This document shows positions 685 to 5,685 of a stretch of 5,685 bases of DNA, piece by piece; within the stretch, counting starts at the first letter, position 1; every line of letters begins with the position of its first letter. The position numbers and the translations under genes were made by a program. The stretch lies in the IMG/VR virus record IMGVR_UViG_3300029873_000376, positions 1 to 5,685 of that record. One strand, written 5' to 3'. Source of the stretch: a virus (lineage: Duplodnaviria > Heunggongvirae > Uroviricota > Caudoviricetes). Below the pieces are notes generated by a model. It did not search any database and was not told where the DNA came from. It saw nothing but the letters and a program-made list of their open reading frames with translations.

Positions 685-855
685 TCAATAAATCCCATCA
701 TTGCGATCAACCTCATCCTTAACCATTGATGCGAGCAGTTCTTCCAGTTTCTGCGCTGACAGCTTTACCTGGTGATCTTCAGCATCTTCCCGGGCTATTG
801 TGGTTCGCGCAGTGGCTGATTTTGCTGACATCACCACAGGGGGCAGACGGACCAT
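685..855 (-). CDS. Hypothetical small protein (about 56 aa from the Met at 853-855); very uncertain
   Basis: The 3' part of the 685..966 minus ORF. The ORF's N-terminal third overlaps the repeat/hairpin at 920-955 and is probably not coding. The internal ATG at 853-855 has GGAGG about 10 nt upstream. No recognisable family; could be non-coding. Confidence 0.2.
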   Translation of the reverse strand: MVRLPPVVMSAKSATARTTIAREDAEDHQVKLSAQKLEELLASMVKDEVDRNDGIY

Positions 856-919
856 TGAACCATGGCCTCCGGAACAAATAAGGGCAAAAATAACAACCAC
901 TATCGAAAGCTCACAAACT

Positions 920-1089
920 AACCGCAGCACGTTCCTGCATACGACGTGTCTGCGGCATAATCCCAATGATTACTCCCTGACAGGATTTGCAGGCCACTCA
1001 ATATCAGGTGCAGTTGATGTATCAACACGATTCAACAATACCCGATATTTATTCCATGCCTCCAGCAACGATCTTTCTTCCTCCGTTGC
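920..1089. repeat. Direct repeat copy 1 (about 170 bp): 3' end of tfa plus downstream palindromic hairpin
   Basis: Manual alignment of 920-1089 with 1970-2138 gives roughly 85-90% identity at an offset of 1049-1050 bp, same orientation. The two tfa stop codons (970-972 and 2019-2021) are in register. Confidence 0.85.
922..955 (-). terminator. Hairpin 15 nt after the tfa-like stop (minus strand), candidate intrinsic terminator
   Basis: CCGCAGCACGT (922-932) pairs with ACGTGTCTGCGG (944-955), with one bulged T. On the minus strand it is followed directly by TTAGTTTGTGAGCTTT. Confidence 0.4.
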
Positions 1090-1969: not shown

Positions 1970-2138
1970 AACCGCAGCACGTTCTTGCTTAAGACGTGCT
2001 GCGGCATAATCCCAATGATTACTCCCTGACAGGGTTCGTAGGCCACTCAATATCAGGTGCAGTTGATGTATCAACACGGTTCAGCAACACCCGATACTTC
2101 TTCCAGGCTTCCAGCAACGGAGTTTCTTCCTCCGTTGC
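1970..2138. repeat. Direct repeat copy 2 (about 170 bp): tfa 3' remnant plus palindromic hairpin
   Basis: See copy 1. This copy begins 6 nt after the methyltransferase stop codon (TAG, 1962-1964). Confidence 0.85.
1972..2004. terminator. Perfect palindromic hairpin between the convergent methyltransferase gene and the tfa remnant; candidate bidirectional terminator
   Basis: CCGCAGCACGT (1972-1982) and ACGTGCTGCGG (1994-2004) form a perfect 11-bp stem that can extend to about 14 bp with one bulge. On the minus strand a T6 run lies about 10 nt past the stem (TTGGATGCTATTTTTT). There is no T-tract on the plus strand. Confidence 0.4.
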
Positions 2139-2147
2139 ATATACAGC
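2019..2147 (-). pseudogene. tfa: Start-less remnant of a tfa 3' end (42 codons)
   Basis: Minus-strand translation gives [42 protein letters not shown] then stop (TAA at 2019-2021). An in-frame TGA lies immediately upstream (2148-2150) and there is no start codon. It is homologous to the C-terminus of the 970..1239 ORF. Confidence 0.65.
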
Positions 2148-2157
2148 TCACCTTTTT

Positions 2158-2451
2158 TCACCCACGATTAACCAACAGCCAGACCAGCAGACACGCCACC
2201 ACCGGCACAGCAAAATCCATCAGGCTTGCCACATCCCACGCGCGCGGATCAAAACCGCCCCACCACGGCATATTCATTCGCTTGCCATGCCCGAACATTT
2301 CAATCCAGCGATATTCTGCCTGGGTGTGTTCACGCGCAATGAAGAACGTACAACCAGCTATCGCCCCGTAAGCCCAGTTCCCGGTAAAAAGACCAATCAG
2401 TAGCTGCGCAGCCACAGCACAAAGCGCATGAAGGAAAGGTGTTATATCCAT
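2158..2451 (-). CDS. Hypothetical small membrane protein (97 aa, two predicted hydrophobic helices, Trp-rich linker)
   Basis: Consensus SD AGGAGG lies 4 nt upstream of the ATG (2449-2451) and directly follows the stop of the upstream gene. Hydrophobic segments FLHALCAVAAQLLIGLFTGNWAYGAIAGCTFFIA and ASLMDFAVPVVACLLVWLLV flank a charged, Trp-rich loop. No family recognised. Confidence 0.55.
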   Translation of the reverse strand: MDITPFLHALCAVAAQLLIGLFTGNWAYGAIAGCTFFIAREHTQAEYRWIEMFGHGKRMNMPWWGGFDPRAWDVASLMDFAVPVVACLLVWLLVNRG

Positions 2452-2461
2452 TACTCCTCCT

Positions 2462-3166
2462 TTATCCGATATCGCTTCGGGAAACGGATAACAACTTTAA
2501 TTCTGACTCAAGTTCATCAACTCTTTCAGTCAGCTTCTGGATATGGTGAATCAGTGGAACAACCAGACGTTCGTACATTACACCTTCGGCAACAAGGCCA
2601 TTGCTGGAAATAGCTTCCGGTGCATCATCTTCGTTAGCTGGTCGCCAGTGTACAAACTGAGGGGCAATTTCTCCTACTTCCTCGGCAATCAATCCGTAGA
2701 ATCCCCAGTCACGCCTGTCATTTGCGCATTGTGACCTGTACCACACAGGGCGCATCCTGAAAATGAGATCGGCGTGCTCTGAATCTATTGTCTCTACTGA
2801 ATGTTTATAGCGGATAGACGATGTTGACCGCAGCACAGACGAAATTGCGGGGTCAGGATTAAGATAAAGGTTTGCCGCCGCTGTAGTCGTGCCCAATCCC
2901 CACAAATAAAACGCTTCACGGCCAGTCAACGGGTAAAAATCTCCACCATAACGACCGCTTTCCAGAGCGTTCACTTCCAGTTTGTTTTTCAGCTTATTAT
3001 CAACTTCAGTTTTTGTGTATCTGGTGCTGATATCCTGCTTTGCACTGGTCATATCAGCCTGAAGCGTTGATACTTTTCCGTTAATTGAGGAAATATCTTC
3101 CTTGGCTTTACTGACATCTCCCTTTAACGTGGTGATGTCTCCCGGAATTACTGTCGATGTAGCCAT
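2462..3166 (-). CDS. Tail-fibre-like protein (234 aa) with C-terminal intramolecular-chaperone-like (peptidase S74-type) domain
   Basis: GGGAG lies 4 nt upstream of the ATG (3164-3166). Residues about 112-225 (S-S-I-R-Y-K...ETID...LIFRMRPVWY...WGFYGLIAEEVGEIAPQFV...GVMYERLVVPLIHHIQKL...ELESELKLL) fit the pattern I recall for the auto-cleaving C-terminal chaperone domain of endosialidase-type tailspikes and the T5 L-shaped fibre (S-D-x-R-x-K-x-N-I...L-R-P-V-x-Y...G-F-I-A-Q-E-V...P-E...L-I-x-A-I-Q-E-L). The N-terminal 70 aa are coiled-coil-like with two similar segments (LKGDVSKAKEDISS / LQADMTSAKQDIST). Confidence 0.65.
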   Translation of the reverse strand: MATSTVIPGDITTLKGDVSKAKEDISSINGKVSTLQADMTSAKQDISTRYTKTEVDNKLKNKLEVNALESGRYGGDFYPLTGREAFYLWGLGTTTAAANLYLNPDPAISSVLRSTSSIRYKHSVETIDSEHADLIFRMRPVWYRSQCANDRRDWGFYGLIAEEVGEIAPQFVHWRPANEDDAPEAISSNGLVAEGVMYERLVVPLIHHIQKLTERVDELESELKLLSVSRSDIG

Positions 3167-3175
3167 TTGTCTCCC

Positions 3176-3457
3176 TCACATCCAGCCACGAAGTTGATGT
3201 TCAACTACAACCGCGTATTCATCGAATATTGACGATTTTTTTGCATCATTAATGATGCGCACGTTTACAAAATATCCATCTTCCTTAACACATACCGGTT
3301 CGCCATCTTCAGTCAGTTCTCCGGTTTCTTTGTACACGTTACCTATCACGTCAATAAGAATATCATCCTGCATCGACTCGTCATCATAATAGCCAATGCT
3401 ATCCATAAAGGCCGAAAAGTCGGCCCTGTCTGCAAATTTGAGTGTTAAATCTTTCAT
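3176..3457 (-). CDS. Hypothetical acidic protein (93 aa), translationally coupled to stf
   Basis: Its ATG (3455-3457) overlaps the stf stop codon (TAATG). GGGGGAG sits 8 nt upstream, inside the stf 3' end. Rich in Asp/Glu; no family recognised. It occupies the position where tfa normally follows stf. Confidence 0.55.
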   Translation of the reverse strand: MKDLTLKFADRADFSAFMDSIGYYDDESMQDDILIDVIGNVYKETGELTEDGEPVCVKEDGYFVNVRIINDAKKSSIFDEYAVVVEHQLRGWM

Positions 3458-5685
3458 TAGATTGACTCCCCCATCTGAGCATCAGTCAATGCCTTGTGCC
3501 ATATTCTGAAATTCCTGACATGACCAAATAAATGACGCAACCCGGCTGTAGTCTGGCCTCCAATACGGATAATTGCGGAGTTCTGAATATAGGACCATGT
3601 GGCTTTCTTTTCGCTGGATATACGCCCGTTACTTACTGAGCACGTAGACTGATCTGACTTTACACGCATCCCCATAACCATTTTTTCAAGCGATGCGTTT
3701 TCGTTTACCCGTCTGTTAGCCAAACCTATATCACAATAAGGAAATCCGTCGTAATCTGTTGAACGACCGAAGCCAAGAATAATAGCCGCTCCGGTTTGAT
3801 GACCGCCGGTATCAAAAACACGCGGTGCTGCATTTGGCGTTTTATACCAGTTCTTATGTACCTCACAAAGAACCGTAAAAGGAAGATTATAAAGATTATT
3901 CTTAATTGGAACTGTAACTATATCGCTTGCGCGGGTCGCCGCCGTCGCTCCTGATATAATAAAAGATGATACACAAGGCCCATCTTCTACTTGTGGGGTG
4001 GCCAGATAAATATAGTCACCAGATACGGTTGCCCCGCTCTGCTTAGGAGAATACTGTATCTGAGAGCCTATTTTTAACTCCCCATCAATTGCCTGAATTG
4101 TTGCCTCTGCAAAAATCCATCCGGTAGCTTCGTCCTTTCTGACTCTCGCTGTAATTCTTGAGGCAGCACCGCCTGTCATATTAATTTCAAGCGTTTGTGT
4201 ATCAATATACGCATCACCAAGAAAAGTTGTTGCGCTACCGTCATATTTATCAAACCGGATACGCAACCTTACCTGCAGTTCTGTTTTAAAACGACATGAG
4301 GTTGTCACGTGTTTATTATCGCCTGAGACATCAACTGACTTTGTTGCAGCAATTGATGCCATATTAATGGCTGAGGTTTGCCCAATCAGAGAATCGTTGC
4401 AGACAAACTTTCCATAGGTAAAACCAAAATTATCCGTCCCTGTTTCGGGCACATCCATATTTGACGATCGCCCCCAACTGGCAGGGCTTTCCGAATTGAG
4501 CATGTAGTTTGTTCTTTGCCCCTCAATAAGCAGGCCATCACGTTCAAATCGTGGCTCGTCAATGGCAGCCTCTGTCAGCACACCAGATTTGTTAATATAG
4601 GTTGCTTTCGATGCACGTTTAAACTTAACAATCTTGTCGCCAGGCATCGTTATTTCATCGTCACCAATAACAATTTTTTTATATGATGGCGAAAAGCCCG
4701 TAATCATATCCAGCGAATCGTTAAATGGTATCCACACATCAGGCAGCGGCTGTAAGACATATTTATACGGCTCCGCAGCCTGGCTTGCGTACTCTCTGGC
4801 TGCATCTTCGCTTGCTTTAGCTGCCGTCTGGCTTGCTGCCGATGCTTTCGCTGAGTTCGCAGCCGCTGTTTCGCTCACCTTTGCGTTGGTTTCACTGGTT
4901 TTTGCTGCTTTTTGACTGTTAGCTGATGCAGTGGCAGAAGCAGCCGCCGCGCTTGCAGAACTGGCTGCGGCACTCTCGCTTTGGGCCGCTGCATCCTGAC
5001 TGCTTTTCGCCGCAGTTTCACTGGCTTTGGCATTCGTTTCGCTGGTCTTCGCTGCCGCCTGGCTGGACTTTGCGTTAGTTTCACTCGTCTTCGCAGCTTT
5101 CTGGCTGTTAGCCGCAGCAGTTGCTGATCCAGCTGCTGAAGTCGCAGAACCGGCTGCCGCGCTCTCGCTTTGGGCTGCTGCAACCTGGCTGTTTTTTGCT
5201 GCAGTTTCACTGGCTTTAGCATTCGTTTCGCTGGTCTTCGCTGCCGCCTGTGCGCTGTTAGCTGCATTCGTTTCTGAGGTTTTCGCCGCGTTCTTCGATG
5301 ATGCCGCTGCAGTTTCGGATTTCTTTGCCGCCGCTGCGCTCTGAGAGGCGGCTTCAGCGTTGCGTGCCGCTTCTTCCACCATTGCCTCAAAACGACGCAA
5401 TGCCTCCGGCATGACATCATCTTCCGTCATGGCACCGAGAAAATCATTCAGCGTACCTGGTCTGGAACCTTCATAGACGGTAATGGTTCCGGCATGTGAA
5501 GGCGGAAAACCTTCAACAAGCAGGATAACGCTGTACTGGCCATACTCAACATCCATGCTGTAACGCCCGGCTTCATCCGGATTTTCAGAGGCCACCGTGT
5601 TCACCAGTACCGTGGTACTGTTACGTTTTGCTTTCAGCTGGATTGTGCAGTTCTGTACCGGTTTTCCTGTGCCGTCTTTCAGTAC
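3457..5685 (-). CDS. stf: Side tail fibre protein (Stf-like), 5'-partial: the reading frame is open to the window edge
   Basis: The minus-strand frame is open from 5685 (VLKDGTGKPVQNCTIQ...) through the listed Met at 5604. The N-terminus NTVASENPDEAGRYSMDVEYGQYSVIL.V.GFPPSHAGTITVYE...PGTLNDFL matches the lambda Stf / E. coli prophage side tail fibre N-terminus as I recall it. This is followed by an Ala/Ser/Thr-rich repetitive region and a 440-aa C-terminal domain ending ...LFGHVRNFRIWHKALTDAQMGESI. Confidence 0.9.
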   Translation of the reverse strand, partial: VLKDGTGKPVQNCTIQLKAKRNSTTVLVNTVASENPDEAGRYSMDVEYGQYSVILLVEGFPPSHAGTITVYEGSRPGTLNDFLGAMTEDDVMPEALRRFEAMVEEAARNAEAASQSAAAAKKSETAAASSKNAAKTSETNAANSAQAAAKTSETNAKASETAAKNSQVAAAQSESAAAGSATSAAGSATAAANSQKAAKTSETNAKSSQAAAKTSETNAKASETAAKSSQDAAAQSESAAASSASAAAASATASANSQKAAKTSETNAKVSETAAANSAKASAASQTAAKASEDAAREYASQAAEPYKYVLQPLPDVWIPFNDSLDMITGFSPSYKKIVIGDDEITMPGDKIVKFKRASKATYINKSGVLTEAAIDEPRFERDGLLIEGQRTNYMLNSESPASWGRSSNMDVPETGTDNFGFTYGKFVCNDSLIGQTSAINMASIAATKSVDVSGDNKHVTTSCRFKTELQVRLRIRFDKYDGSATTFLGDAYIDTQTLEINMTGGAASRITARVRKDEATGWIFAEATIQAIDGELKIGSQIQYSPKQSGATVSGDYIYLATPQVEDGPCVSSFIISGATAATRASDIVTVPIKNNLYNLPFTVLCEVHKNWYKTPNAAPRVFDTGGHQTGAAIILGFGRSTDYDGFPYCDIGLANRRVNENASLEKMVMGMRVKSDQSTCSVSNGRISSEKKATWSYIQNSAIIRIGGQTTAGLRHLFGHVRNFRIWHKALTDAQMGESI
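4823..5250. repeat. Imperfect tandem repeat, period about 189 bp (63 codons), roughly 2.3 copies, inside the stf shaft region
   Basis: GCAGTTTCACTGGCTTT(A/G)GCATTCGTTTCGCTGGTCTTCGCTGCCGCCTG occurs at 5012 and 5201. The protein units AAKTSETNAKASETAAKNSQ...NSQKAAKTSETNAKSSQ and AAKTSETNAKASETAAKSSQ...NSQKAAKTSETNAKVSE are near-identical. Confidence 0.8.

What the first reader, a model, noticed from the sequence alone, without database searches (positions are those of the whole stretch)
2158..2451. Small two-helix, Trp-rich membrane protein with consensus RBS at the end of the fibre operon
The 97-aa product has two long hydrophobic segments around a charged loop (REHTQAEYRWIEMFGHGKRMNMPWWGGFDPRAWD). 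It is preceded by a near-perfect AGGAGG and appears more GC-rich than the two genes upstream of it. Small inner-membrane proteins encoded next to tail fibre genes are a known location for superinfection-exclusion or receptor-masking functions. Nothing in the sequence proves this, and it could be a holin-like or unrelated membrane protein.
Basis: inference. Interest (0 to 1): 0.45.

Follow-up and report, generated by a model that had tools for sequence, protein, structure and literature searches.

The report
Temperate-phage small inner-membrane accessory protein
The 97-codon ORF is a real, strongly conserved gene for a three-helix inner-membrane protein of unknown function that temperate phages, but not virulent E. 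coli phages with the same tail fibre, carry just after their host-recognition genes; this makes it a good but untested candidate for a new prophage-encoded phage-exclusion or cell-surface-conversion factor.

Summary
The window has a 97-aa ORF (2158-2451, minus strand) with AGGAGG 4 nt before the ATG. Its GC is 54%, against 40-46% for the two upstream genes. It is the last intact gene after Stf, a 93-aa gene and a 234-aa S74 fibre gene.

It belongs to an uncharacterised family (phrog_1443, UniRef name 'Ybl63') with no Pfam, NCBIfam, PADLOC or PDB match. The gene is in 2068 of 5426 complete E. coli genomes. All 85 copies examined are intact, and dN/dS is about 0.1.

AlphaFold2 (pLDDT 92.5) gives three helices, not two. 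A polar signature is almost invariant: His in helix 1, Arg-Glu at the end of helix 2, Trp, then Asp and Pro in helix 3. K+R counts place the conserved Trp-rich loop in the cytoplasm.

Among the 60 best phage matches to the fibre C-domain, all 22 lambdoid or phage-plasmid records (read as temperate) carry the gene and all 38 others lack it. Four of those 38 were confirmed as virulent families. One group of virulent phages keeps only a dead remnant. In the P22-like phage Gally the gene sits between tailspike and integrase, behind a terminator. Stand-alone chromosomal homologues also exist.

Best reading, at about 0.4: a moron-type prophage gene that acts from the inner membrane, most likely by excluding other phages, as HK97 gp15 does. 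Outer-membrane receptor masking, a holin role and fibre assembly are all disfavoured. The function is untested.

The parts
2158..2451 (-). CDS of the 97-aa membrane protein (phrog_1443 family; RefSeq WP_000355601.1; UniRef name 'Ybl63')
   Evidence: The ORF is listed. The phrog_1443 match has E 5.8e-59 over residues 1-96. RefSeq annotates it as a CDS. dN/dS is about 0.10 and 85 of 85 copies are intact.
2456..2461 (-). Shine-Dalgarno AGGAGG, 4 nt upstream of the ATG; the TAA stop of the upstream gene lies at 2462-2464
   Evidence: Read directly from the sequence.
2383..2442 (-). Helix 1 (residues 4-23), carrying near-invariant His8 and Gln16
   Evidence: AlphaFold2 model with pLDDT 92.5. Conservation is H8 95% and Q16 81%.
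2296..2376 (-). Helix 2 (residues 26-52), with invariant Arg40-Glu41 and the conserved QAEYRWI extension
2233..2295 (-). Trp-rich conserved loop (residues 53-73: GHGKRMNMPWWGGFDPRAWDV), predicted to be cytoplasmic and interfacial
   Evidence: K+R in region 40-73 is 5.4, against 0.07 in the turn and 0.48 in the C-tail. The side of the membrane is an inference.
2164..2232 (-). Helix 3 (residues 74-96), with conserved Asp79 and Pro83
2462..3166 (-). Upstream gene: 234-aa short fibre protein with a C-terminal Peptidase_S74 intramolecular-chaperone domain
   Evidence: PF13884 matches with E 7.5e-6, and several PHROGs tail-fibre families also match. RefSeq names it 'tail fiber domain-containing protein'.
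3176..3457 (-). 93-aa acidic protein (phrog_1361), a constant partner of this fibre type; its start overlaps the stf stop
   Evidence: It is found with the fibre in both temperate and virulent phages.
3457..5685 (-). Side tail fibre Stf (749 aa in RefSeq; the start lies beyond the window). Its C-domain (3457-4749) is homologous to the RcGTA head-spike fibre
   Evidence: PF08400 matches the N-terminus, with phrog_1419 and NF048003 also matching. PDB 6TB9 Rcc01080 matches with E 1e-7.
1970..2157 (-). 3' remnant of a tail-fibre-assembly (tfa) gene, directly downstream of the 97-aa gene; it is one copy of a 91% direct repeat
   Evidence: RefSeq annotates a pseudogene here. The repeats are 920-1089 and 1970-2138. 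The translation [16 protein letters not shown] is shown.

Best explanation
**What it is (well supported)**
- It is a genuine, strongly constrained gene for a protein of about 97 aa that forms three membrane helices.
- A polar cluster lies at one membrane face: His8 in helix 1, Arg40-Glu41 at the end of helix 2, and Asp79 and Pro83 in helix 3. The cluster sits under a conserved Trp-rich loop.
- It belongs to a large uncharacterised family of Proteobacteria (phrog_1443). The family occurs both in phages and as stand-alone chromosomal genes.

**How it most likely works (inferred)**
- It is a self-sufficient accessory ('moron'/lysogenic-conversion type) gene that temperate phages keep next to their host-recognition genes.
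- It probably inserts into the inner membrane with its N-terminus and conserved loop on the cytoplasmic side.
- From there it most likely protects the lysogen by blocking a step after adsorption, such as formation of the DNA-entry channel or use of an inner-membrane entry factor. HK97 gp15, P22 SieA and T4 Imm act this way. It is unlikely to mask an outer-membrane receptor.

**Graded confidence**
- Real three-helix membrane protein: above 0.95.
- Accessory gene whose benefit is tied to the temperate lifestyle: about 0.7.
- Phage exclusion is the benefit: about 0.4.
- If so, acting at the inner membrane rather than on the receptor: about 0.7.
For: **Gene and fold**
- establish the ORF, the family, the fold and purifying selection.

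**Tied to temperate phages**
- Of the 60 best phage records holding the same fibre C-domain, all 22 lambdoid or phage-plasmid records are among the 53 records that carry the gene. None of the 38 others is.
- Those 38 include Drexlerviridae tunus, Tequintavirus VSe12, Seuratvirus VogelGryff and Nonagvirus ESCO3. All four keep fibre + 92-93-aa gene + second fibre without it.
- In ESCO3 a terminator follows the S74 gene directly.
- The virulent HC6 group keeps a dead remnant with an internal deletion of the Arg-Glu region and a TGG>TAG change.

**Moron-like features**
- Its GC deviates from that of its neighbours.
- In the Lederbergvirus Gally it lies between tailspike and int, after an intrinsic terminator and an AT-rich stretch with a promoter-like site. 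By my own knowledge this is the locus where P22-like phages carry O-antigen conversion genes.
- About 85 nt of the S74-gene 3' end survives in Gally as non-coding DNA, while the ORF stays intact at 80% identity.
- In Silvania prophages it lies on the strand opposite to J and the phage porin.
- In phiHAP-1 it lies between the tail-fibre-assembly gene and the sheath gene. By my own knowledge this is the P2 Z/fun position.
- In the phage-plasmid PhiR41_1 it again follows Stf and the 92-aa gene.

**Self-sufficient and not lethal**
- Chromosomal homologues have housekeeping neighbours: Aeromonas, Leclercia and Sphingomonadales.

**Precedent**
- HK97 gp15 is a small inner-membrane protein encoded by a moron inside the tail operon. 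Its GC is deviant and most of its homologues are non-phage bacterial proteins (YebO). It blocks genome entry without touching the receptor (PMC3594210).

**Independent of fibre specificity**
- The protein is 96-100% identical while the fibre C-domain ranges from 38 to 100%.

**Topology**
- K+R counts are given.
Against: - No experiment exists and no paper mentions the family.
- It has no sequence or fold similarity to any known exclusion, defence or conversion protein.
- In this window and in other lambdoid prophages the gene starts 10-12 nt after the preceding late gene. No sigma-70-like promoter or terminator of its own was found. Strong terminators after J and after lom isolate the stf cluster from lom transcription. 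Expression in the lysogen is therefore not shown and may be late only.
- Very high conservation across Alpha-, Beta-, Gamma- and Deltaproteobacteria, with His/Arg/Glu/Asp invariants and dN/dS of 0.1, looks more like an enzyme or ligand site than an arms-race protein.
- Intact homologues sit inside the structural operons of Aeromonas phages. One of these is the 236-kb jumbo phage ACP1, which is presumably virulent.
- E. coli genomes that carry the gene have a median of 2 copies and up to 8. It therefore does not obviously exclude phages that carry the same gene.
- The topology rests on the positive-inside rule alone. It conflicts with the TMHMM note in the phage 21 record (2 TMDs, N-in, C-in).
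Confidence: 0.4

Rival explanations
1. Host-physiology factor unrelated to phage defence. On this reading it is a small membrane enzyme, an ion- or ligand-binding subunit, or a regulator of a larger inner-membrane complex. Phages would have captured it from bacterial chromosomes and would carry it as cargo that benefits the lysogen.
For: - Stand-alone chromosomal homologues lie among housekeeping genes in Aeromonas, Leclercia and Sphingomonadales.
- An invariant His / Arg-Glu / Trp / Asp / Pro signature sits at one membrane face. Identity between classes is 55-65% and dN/dS is 0.1.
- The protein does not co-vary with the fibre.
- The gene is restricted to temperate phages in E. coli.
Against: - It is placed immediately after host-recognition genes in at least five unrelated phage types: lambdoid, P22-like, Hapunavirus, an SSU5-like phage-plasmid and jumbo Aeromonas phages. 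This recurrence is not explained, except by calling the site a general cargo hotspot.
- No conserved chromosomal neighbour points to a pathway.
- No family or fold match was found.
Confidence: 0.22
2. Receptor conversion from the inner membrane. On this reading the protein alters a surface glycan or lipid precursor (O-antigen, ECA, capsule or lipid A-core) so that fibres or tailspikes adsorb less well. This is the nearest workable form of the first reader's 'receptor-masking' idea.
For: - The gene always lies next to RBP genes.
- In Gally it occupies the tailspike-int locus. By my own knowledge P22 carries gtrABC and Sf6 carries oac there.
- The linked fibre C-domain is homologous to the RcGTA head-spike fibre. 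By my own knowledge that fibre binds capsule polysaccharide.
- A polar cluster at the membrane face could be a catalytic or binding site.
- In Aeromonas two lpxM-like genes lie 1.2-3.3 kb away.
Against: - At 97 aa it is far smaller than any known glycan-modifying enzyme, and it has no GtrA, acyltransferase or other Pfam match.
- The same protein (78-100% identical) follows very different RBPs: a tailspike, and Stf variants of 38-100% identity.
- Homologues occur in Sphingomonadales. By my own knowledge these bacteria lack LPS.
- The kinase next to the Aeromonas gene is a PA4780-type RIO1 kinase, not a Kdo kinase.
- No lipobox or exported domain is present for direct masking.
Confidence: 0.18
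3. Late-infection or lysis function: a holin, an antiholin or a lysis-timing membrane protein made with the late operon.
For: - It is co-oriented with, and tightly coupled to, late genes in lambdoid prophages, with no promoter of its own found.
- In Comamonas and two metagenomic prophages it lies just upstream of holin-like, endolysin and spanin-like genes.
- Its three helices and size are like those of a class I holin.
- One of 47 family members gives a weak Phage_holin_8 hit (E 0.0036).
Against: - Those cassettes already contain a canonical holin candidate. One example is a 116-aa protein with three TM segments and a charged C-tail in L164.
- The C-terminal tail is only about 3 residues and is not charged.
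- The predicted N-in/C-out orientation is opposite to that of lambda S105 (the S105 topology is from my own knowledge).
- Stand-alone chromosomal homologues imply that the protein is harmless.
- Virulent relatives have lost it.
- By my own knowledge the lambdoid lysis cassette lies elsewhere in the genome.
Confidence: 0.05
4. Tail-fibre assembly factor or virion component required for this fibre type.
For: It is strictly linked to the GTA-spike-type Stf in 87 of 87 E. coli loci, and in Comamonas, Pantoea and Chelativorans prophages.
Against: - Virulent phages of three families use the homologous fibre, 93-aa gene and S74 fibre module without it.
- It also occurs behind an unrelated tailspike, on the strand opposite to the tail genes, and alone in chromosomes.
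- It is an integral membrane protein, whereas fibres assemble in the cytoplasm.
Confidence: 0.02

Closest known systems
HK97 gp15 (YebO-family moron; superinfection exclusion at the inner membrane)
   Same: Both are small inner-membrane proteins encoded inside or at the end of a siphovirus tail operon. In both the GC differs from that of the neighbours, and many homologues are ordinary bacterial genes outside prophages. Both are carried by temperate phages (PMC3594210).
   Different: There is no sequence relationship, and no YebO or other Pfam match. gp15 has its own promoter and terminator and is shown to be expressed from the prophage. Here no such signals were found in the lambdoid arrangement, although they are present in Gally. 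This family is far more widely and strongly conserved. Its function is untested.
P22 SieA and T4 Imm (inner-membrane proteins that block DNA entry)
   Same: Both are small, phage-encoded helical inner-membrane proteins. They act after adsorption and are independent of the outer-membrane receptor (PMC11436027).
   Different: No homology was detected in the Pfam or PHROGs scans. Imm is an early gene of a virulent phage. Neither protein is known to me to have widespread chromosomal homologues with an invariant polar motif.
Cor (phi80/N15/T1) and T5 Llp (receptor-masking lipoproteins encoded beside RBP genes)
   Different: By my own knowledge both are exported lipoproteins that bind FhuA. This protein has no lipobox (LHALC has Leu at position -1, and Cys11 is not conserved). 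It has three membrane helices and almost no predicted periplasmic exposure.
gtrABC / oac lysogenic-conversion genes at the tailspike-int locus of P22-like phages
   Same: In the Lederbergvirus Gally the gene occupies the tailspike-int locus as its own transcription unit. That P22 and Sf6 carry conversion genes there is from my own knowledge; the genes themselves are listed in PMC11436027.
   Different: There is no homology to GtrA/B/C or to acyltransferases. It is one 95-97-aa protein rather than a multi-TM enzyme or a three-gene system.
Class I holins (lambda S105 type)
   Same: Both are about 100 aa with three hydrophobic helices. In some prophages the gene lies next to a lysis cassette.
   Different: There is no profile match and no charged C-terminal tail. 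The predicted orientation is opposite. Non-lethal chromosomal homologues exist. A separate holin candidate is present where a cassette follows.

Membership tests
phrog_1443 (uncharacterised phage protein family; UniRef 'Ybl63') | Full-length match to the family profile | tested here: met
   The match has E 5.8e-59 and covers residues 1-96 of a 97-position profile. The exact sequence is in a 1313-member cluster that UniRef names Ybl63.
Moron / lysogenic-conversion gene (as defined for HK97 gp15) | Base composition different from the flanking phage genes | tested here: met
   GC is 54.1%, against 40.4-46.1% for the upstream genes.
Moron / lysogenic-conversion gene (as defined for HK97 gp15) | Own promoter and terminator that allow expression from the repressed prophage | tested here: inconclusive
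   None was found in this window or between lom and the gene. In Gally a terminator and a promoter-like site precede the gene. In Silvania it lies on the strand opposite to the tail genes. The consensus scans are crude.
Moron / lysogenic-conversion gene (as defined for HK97 gp15) | Dispensable for virion production; present in some related phages and absent from others | tested here: met
   It is absent from virulent phages that have the same fibre module. It is decayed in the HC6 group. All 22 lambdoid or phage-plasmid records among the top 60 carry it, and none of the 38 others do.
Superinfection-exclusion proteins (functional class) | Expression reduces infection by other phages | not testable with these tools
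   This needs plating, adsorption and DNA-entry assays.
Known exclusion/defence families (Imm, SieB, YebO/gp15 and Lom/Bor via Pfam; all PADLOC-DB 2.0 models) | Profile match | tested here: not met
   For the window protein the only Pfam hit at E <= 0.1 is a sub-threshold PhoR hit (E 0.059). PADLOC gives no hit at E <= 1. NCBIfam gives none. Across 47 diverse members no such family recurs.
Cor/Llp-type receptor-masking lipoproteins | Signal peptide with a lipobox and an exported mature domain | tested here: not met
   The N-terminus MDITPFLHALC has no basic n-region. Leu is at position -1 of the only Cys, and that Cys is not conserved. His8 in helix 1 is 95% conserved, so helix 1 belongs to the mature protein.
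Holins | Holin profile match, charged cytoplasmic C-terminal tail, and adjacency to an endolysin gene | tested here: not met
   The window protein gives no holin profile hit, and 1 of 47 members gives a weak hit. The C-tail is 3 residues, NRG. No endolysin gene is in the window. Where a lysis cassette follows, another holin-like gene is present.
Holins | Lethal membrane permeabilisation on expression | not testable with these tools
   Stand-alone chromosomal homologues argue indirectly against lethality.
O-antigen/glycan conversion enzymes (GtrA/B/C, Oac) | Profile match to GtrA, glycosyltransferase or acyltransferase families | tested here: not met
   No such Pfam hit was found for the window protein or for 47 family members.

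The most novel reading that the evidence does not exclude
The family is a minimal three-helix membrane enzyme or ligand- or ion-binding module. This is comparable in principle to the 121-aa, three-TM diacylglycerol kinase DgkA, which I cite from my own knowledge. Its active site would be the invariant His / Arg-Glu / Asp cluster at the cytoplasmic membrane face. It would be a bacterial envelope-precursor function that temperate phages have repeatedly captured and parked beside their receptor-binding genes, to re-programme the lysogen's surface or entry pathway. That would be a new biochemical class of lysogenic conversion, not just one more exclusion protein.
Probability: 0.12. Interest if true: 0.7.

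Novelty: new variant of a known kind. Interest (0 to 1): 0.42.

Why it matters
- **Prevalence.** The gene is in about 38% of complete E. coli genomes, often in several copies. It is also in classic phages such as phage 21 and in many lambdoid and P22-like isolates. Every database still calls it 'hypothetical'.
- **If it excludes phages or converts the cell surface.** It would affect phage host range, phage-therapy cocktail design and prophage competition in the gut. It would also add a new family to the short list of inner-membrane exclusion proteins.
- **A reusable comparative signal.** The same fibre module occurs with and without the gene, and its presence follows the split between temperate and virulent phages. 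This signal could be used to find other lysogeny-specific cargo.
- **If it is only host-derived cargo.** It would still be an unusually conserved small membrane protein family that deserves a Pfam entry.

Tried and rejected
- **Profile scans.** Pfam, NCBIfam, PADLOC and PHROGs scans of the protein gave only phrog_1443 (unknown function).
- **Weak Pfam hits.** A Pfam scan of 47 diverse members at E <= 5 gave only scattered hits. PhoR N-terminal TM hairpin matched 4 of 47 (best E 0.0035), VirB3 4 of 47 and Phage_holin_8 1 of 47. I treated these as compositional.
- **PDB by sequence.** Neither the single sequence nor the profile gave a usable match.
- **Homologue searches.** Three homologue searches and one representative search returned no named or Pfam-annotated relative and no informative domain fusion.
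- **Literature.** Searches by accession, family name, 'Ybl63' and topic found nothing on the family. The Tai tail-assembly-inhibition paper was read and is unrelated.
- **LPS link in Aeromonas.** The neighbouring kinase is a PA4780-type RIO1 kinase, not a Kdo kinase. I dropped this lead to weak.
- **Read-through from lom in lysogens.** I rejected this, because a strong terminator separates lom from stf.
- **Cleavable signal peptide** (SignalP note in the phage 21 record). I rejected this because the N-terminus is acidic and His8 and Gln16 are conserved.
- **Rfam.** There are no matches in the window.
- **Tool failures.** The search for related loci with the diverse alignment failed because no conserved stretch was available. 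The IMG/VR scan returned only near-identical E. coli prophages.
Full report
**Observation**

The window is the right end of a lambdoid prophage inserted at ompW, next to the trp operon, in E. coli BEC1-S17-ESBL-09 (100% match). On the minus strand the order is J, lom, stf, a 93-aa gene, a 234-aa fibre gene and then the 97-aa ORF (2158-2451). After these come a tfa remnant, a plus-strand SAM-methyltransferase, a second tfa remnant, a DUF4376 remnant and a Rha gene.

The start region reads TAAAGGAGGAGTAATG. AGGAGG lies 4 nt before the ATG, and the TAA is the stop of the 234-aa gene. GC is 54.1%, against 46.1% and 40.4% for the two upstream genes. The protein has six Trp.

**Reality of the gene**

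- The protein matches phrog_1443 ('unknown function') end to end (E 5.8e-59).
- It has 575 to 1003 homologous 90%-identity clusters and 436 representatives at 50% identity. Nearly all listed relatives are single-domain proteins of about 90-130 aa. None has a name other than 'hypothetical', apart from a UniRef label 'Ybl63'.
- The DNA is present in 2068 of 5426 complete E. coli genomes. Genomes that carry it have a median of two places and at most eight.
- In the fetched loci, 85 of 85 full-length copies are intact through residue 97. Five have lost the stop codon and read on.
- Among 37 distinct alleles, pairwise dN/dS has a median of 0.10. Many synonymous-only codons fall in the conserved loop. 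This fixes the coding frame.

**Structure and conserved signature**

AlphaFold2 on a 38-sequence alignment gives a confident model (mean pLDDT 92.5) with helices at 4-23, 26-52 and 74-96. The N-terminal hydrophobic stretch is therefore a helical hairpin with a tight turn at Gly24-Asn25, and the protein has three helices.

Across distant members the invariant or near-invariant positions are His8, Gly29, Arg40, Glu41, Gln44, Glu46, Trp72, Asp79 and Pro83. The enterobacterial, Aeromonas and Comamonas subgroup also keeps REHTQAEYRWI...NMPWWGGFD almost unchanged.

By helical register, His8, Arg40/Glu41 and Asp79 lie at the same end of the bundle, directly under the Trp-rich loop. This placement is an inference.

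Over 295 family sequences the segment 40-73 carries 5.4 Lys+Arg on average. The turn carries 0.07, the C-tail 0.48 and the N-tail 0.41. By the positive-inside rule the loop and the N-terminus face the cytoplasm, and only the turn and a 3-residue tail face the periplasm. This is an inference, and it disagrees with the TMHMM note in the phage 21 record.

Fold searches returned only generic helical bundles. Sequence and profile searches of the PDB returned nothing useful.

**Genomic context in E. coli**

- In all 87 E. coli-type loci examined, the gene follows an Stf whose C-domain belongs to one family, on the same strand. A 92-93-aa partner gene is usually present, and a second fibre with an S74 chaperone domain is often present.
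- The fibre C-domain ranges from 38 to 100% identity, and the second fibre comes and goes. The 97-aa protein stays 96-100% identical, so it does not track receptor specificity.
- The fibre C-domain is homologous to the head-spike fibre of the Rhodobacter gene transfer agent (PDB 6TB9, E 1e-7; NF048003).

**The decisive comparison**

The same fibre domain occurs in 207 phage records, but the 97-aa gene (at E <= 1e-20) occurs in only 53.

- Among the 60 best fibre matches, all 22 lambdoid or phage-plasmid records are on the list of 53. None of the other 38 is.
- I checked four of those 38. Warwickvirus tunus (Drexlerviridae), Tequintavirus VSe12 (Demerecviridae), Seuratvirus VogelGryff and Nonagvirus ESCO3 (Queuovirinae) all carry fibre + 92-93-aa gene + second fibre without the membrane gene.
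- In ESCO3 an intrinsic terminator follows the S74 gene directly.
- A further group of virulent E. coli and Salmonella siphophages (HC6, ST1UNAM, ZCEC08, PBM-3, HC8A) retains an unannotated remnant behind an S74-type fibre gene. The Arg-Glu region is deleted and a TGG has become TAG.

The gene is therefore not needed to make or use this fibre. In E. coli phages it is kept only in the lambdoid, P22-like and phage-plasmid genomes that I read as temperate.

**Other temperate settings**

- *Gally (Lederbergvirus, P22-like).* An 80%-identical copy lies between the tailspike gene and int/xis. It follows a 9-bp-stem terminator and an AT-rich stretch with a promoter-like site.
  - About 85 nt upstream of its ATG are recognisably the 3' end of the S74 fibre gene, now non-coding. 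The cassette therefore came from a lambdoid fibre module, and only the membrane ORF has been preserved.
  - By my own knowledge, this tailspike-int interval is where P22 carries gtrABC and Sf6 carries oac.
- *PhiR41_1.* In this 108-kb circular phage-plasmid the gene follows J, Stf and the 92-aa gene.
- *Silvania prophages.* The gene lies on the strand opposite to J and a phage porin.
- *Halomonas phage phiHAP-1.* The homologue lies between the tail-fibre-assembly gene and the sheath gene. By my own knowledge this is the position of the P2 conversion gene Z/fun.
- *Comamonas, Pantoea and Chelativorans prophages.* The homologue follows a homologous fibre domain and a small partner gene. In Comamonas and two metagenomic prophages it precedes a lysis cassette that already has its own holin-like gene.

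**Contexts that complicate the picture**

- Homologues with the full signature sit inside the structural operons of Aeromonas phages. One is the 236-kb phage ACP1, where the gene lies next to a putative tail fibre gene. Two metagenomic podovirus-like contigs show the same.
- Homologues also stand alone in chromosomes:
  - In Aeromonas the gene lies between pirin and a RIO1-type kinase, and the locus is syntenic in several species.
  - In five Leclercia genomes it lies between a peptidase M3 gene and a Meth_synt_2 / ABC-transporter block.
  - In Sphingomonadales it lies beside ligA, pnp, nadB, aroG or a peptidase M13 gene.

The protein is therefore self-sufficient and harmless to a growing cell.

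**Expression signals**

In this window no sigma-70-like promoter or intrinsic terminator was found on the minus strand between stf and the end of the gene. Strong terminators follow J and lom.

As far as simple consensus scans can tell, the gene is part of the Q-dependent late transcript in lambdoid prophages. Expression in the lysogen remains to be shown. This is the weakest link in the preferred explanation.

**Interpretation**

The closest documented parallel is HK97 gp15. It is encoded by a moron inside the tail operon and has deviant GC. It is a small inner-membrane protein, and its homologues are mostly ordinary bacterial genes (YebO). It blocks genome entry without touching the receptor (PMC3594210). 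The resemblance is one of kind, not of sequence. No known exclusion, defence, holin or conversion family matches.

I therefore read the gene as a moron-type accessory gene of temperate phages, at about 0.7. Phage exclusion from the inner membrane is its most likely benefit, at about 0.4.

The alternatives are:
- a host-physiology membrane factor (0.22);
- receptor conversion through an envelope precursor (0.18);
- a lysis or late-infection role (0.05);
- fibre assembly (0.02).

Three observations keep the enzyme or ligand-site reading alive. The polar signature is extremely conserved across four proteobacterial classes, dN/dS is low, and several copies often co-reside in one genome. They also argue against a fast arms-race protein.

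**Verdict**

Its interpretation is partly supported. The gene is a genuine accessory membrane protein linked to host-recognition modules. It probably does not mask a receptor, and it is not a holin. Nothing about its function has been tested anywhere that I could find.

Noticed in passing
window 920-1089 and 1970-2138, flanking 1296-1964: A class I SAM-dependent methyltransferase gene (plus strand, phrog_2132) lies between two 91%-identical direct repeats. Each repeat consists of the 3' end of a tail-fibre-assembly gene plus a hairpin. This looks like cargo inserted or duplicated by recombination within tfa. The same MTase + tfa arrangement follows the 97-aa gene in several other prophages.
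   Followed up: partly
window 3457-4749 (- strand): The Stf C-terminal domain is homologous to the head-spike fibre Rcc01080 of the Rhodobacter capsulatus gene transfer agent (PDB 6TB9, E 1e-7; NF048003). The same domain is shared by lateral fibres of Drexlerviridae, Tequintavirus and Queuovirinae phages, 207 phage records in all.
   Followed up: partly
window 3176-3457 (- strand): A 93-aa acidic protein (phrog_1361, related to phrog_18574) has a start that overlaps the stf stop. It accompanies this fibre type in both temperate and virulent phages, so it is probably the fibre's chaperone or a distal partner. It has no Pfam or PDB match.
   Followed up: partly
window 4879-5250: Two copies of a 189-nt tandem repeat (83% matches) lie in the Ala-rich shaft of Stf. 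GC is about 57% and AT skew about -0.5.
   Followed up: no
L160 (Escherichia phage HC6) 3461-3680: An unannotated dead remnant of the 97-aa gene lies directly after an S74-type tail fibre gene of a virulent siphophage. It has an internal deletion and frameshift that remove the Arg-Glu motif, and a TGG>TAG change at the Asp-Trp-Leu-Val-Pro position. Four other phages (ST1UNAM, ZCEC08, PBM-3, HC8A) gave the same partial, unannotated match but were not inspected.
   Followed up: yes
L170 (Escherichia phage Gally) 4416-4500: About 85 nt upstream of the Gally homologue are homologous to the 3' coding end of the 234-aa S74 fibre gene of the window, but are non-coding there. This is a footprint of transfer of the cassette from a lambdoid fibre module into a P22-like phage.
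   Followed up: partly
L003 17723-17744 and 18400-18419 (- strand): Strong intrinsic terminators lie after lom and after J, just upstream of stf. The phage 21 record annotates a terminator after J (just upstream of its stf; that record lists no lom gene), so stf and the genes after it depend on antiterminated late transcription.
   Followed up: partly
L020, L024, L058, L059, L065 (IMG/VR E. coli prophages): Five of 85 copies have lost the stop codon and continue into the downstream tfa remnant (...[16 protein letters not shown]...). Proteins of about 190 aa with a full-length match to the family are also in the database (P0279, P0280, P0283, P0286 and P0300) but were not examined. C-terminal extensions therefore seem to be tolerated.
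   Followed up: no
window 685-966 (- strand): A remnant of a DUF4376 / tail-fibre C-terminal gene with an internal stop lies between the tfa fragment and the Rha gene. RefSeq annotates it as a pseudogene.
   Followed up: no
L097, L100, L106 (Silvania) and L088 (E. ruysiae): These prophages carry a porin gene (Porin_1, phrog_410). In the Silvania loci it lies just downstream of J and close to the 97-aa homologue. In L088 it lies about 5 kb beyond the homologue on the opposite strand. This is another surface-related cargo gene in the same region.
   Followed up: no
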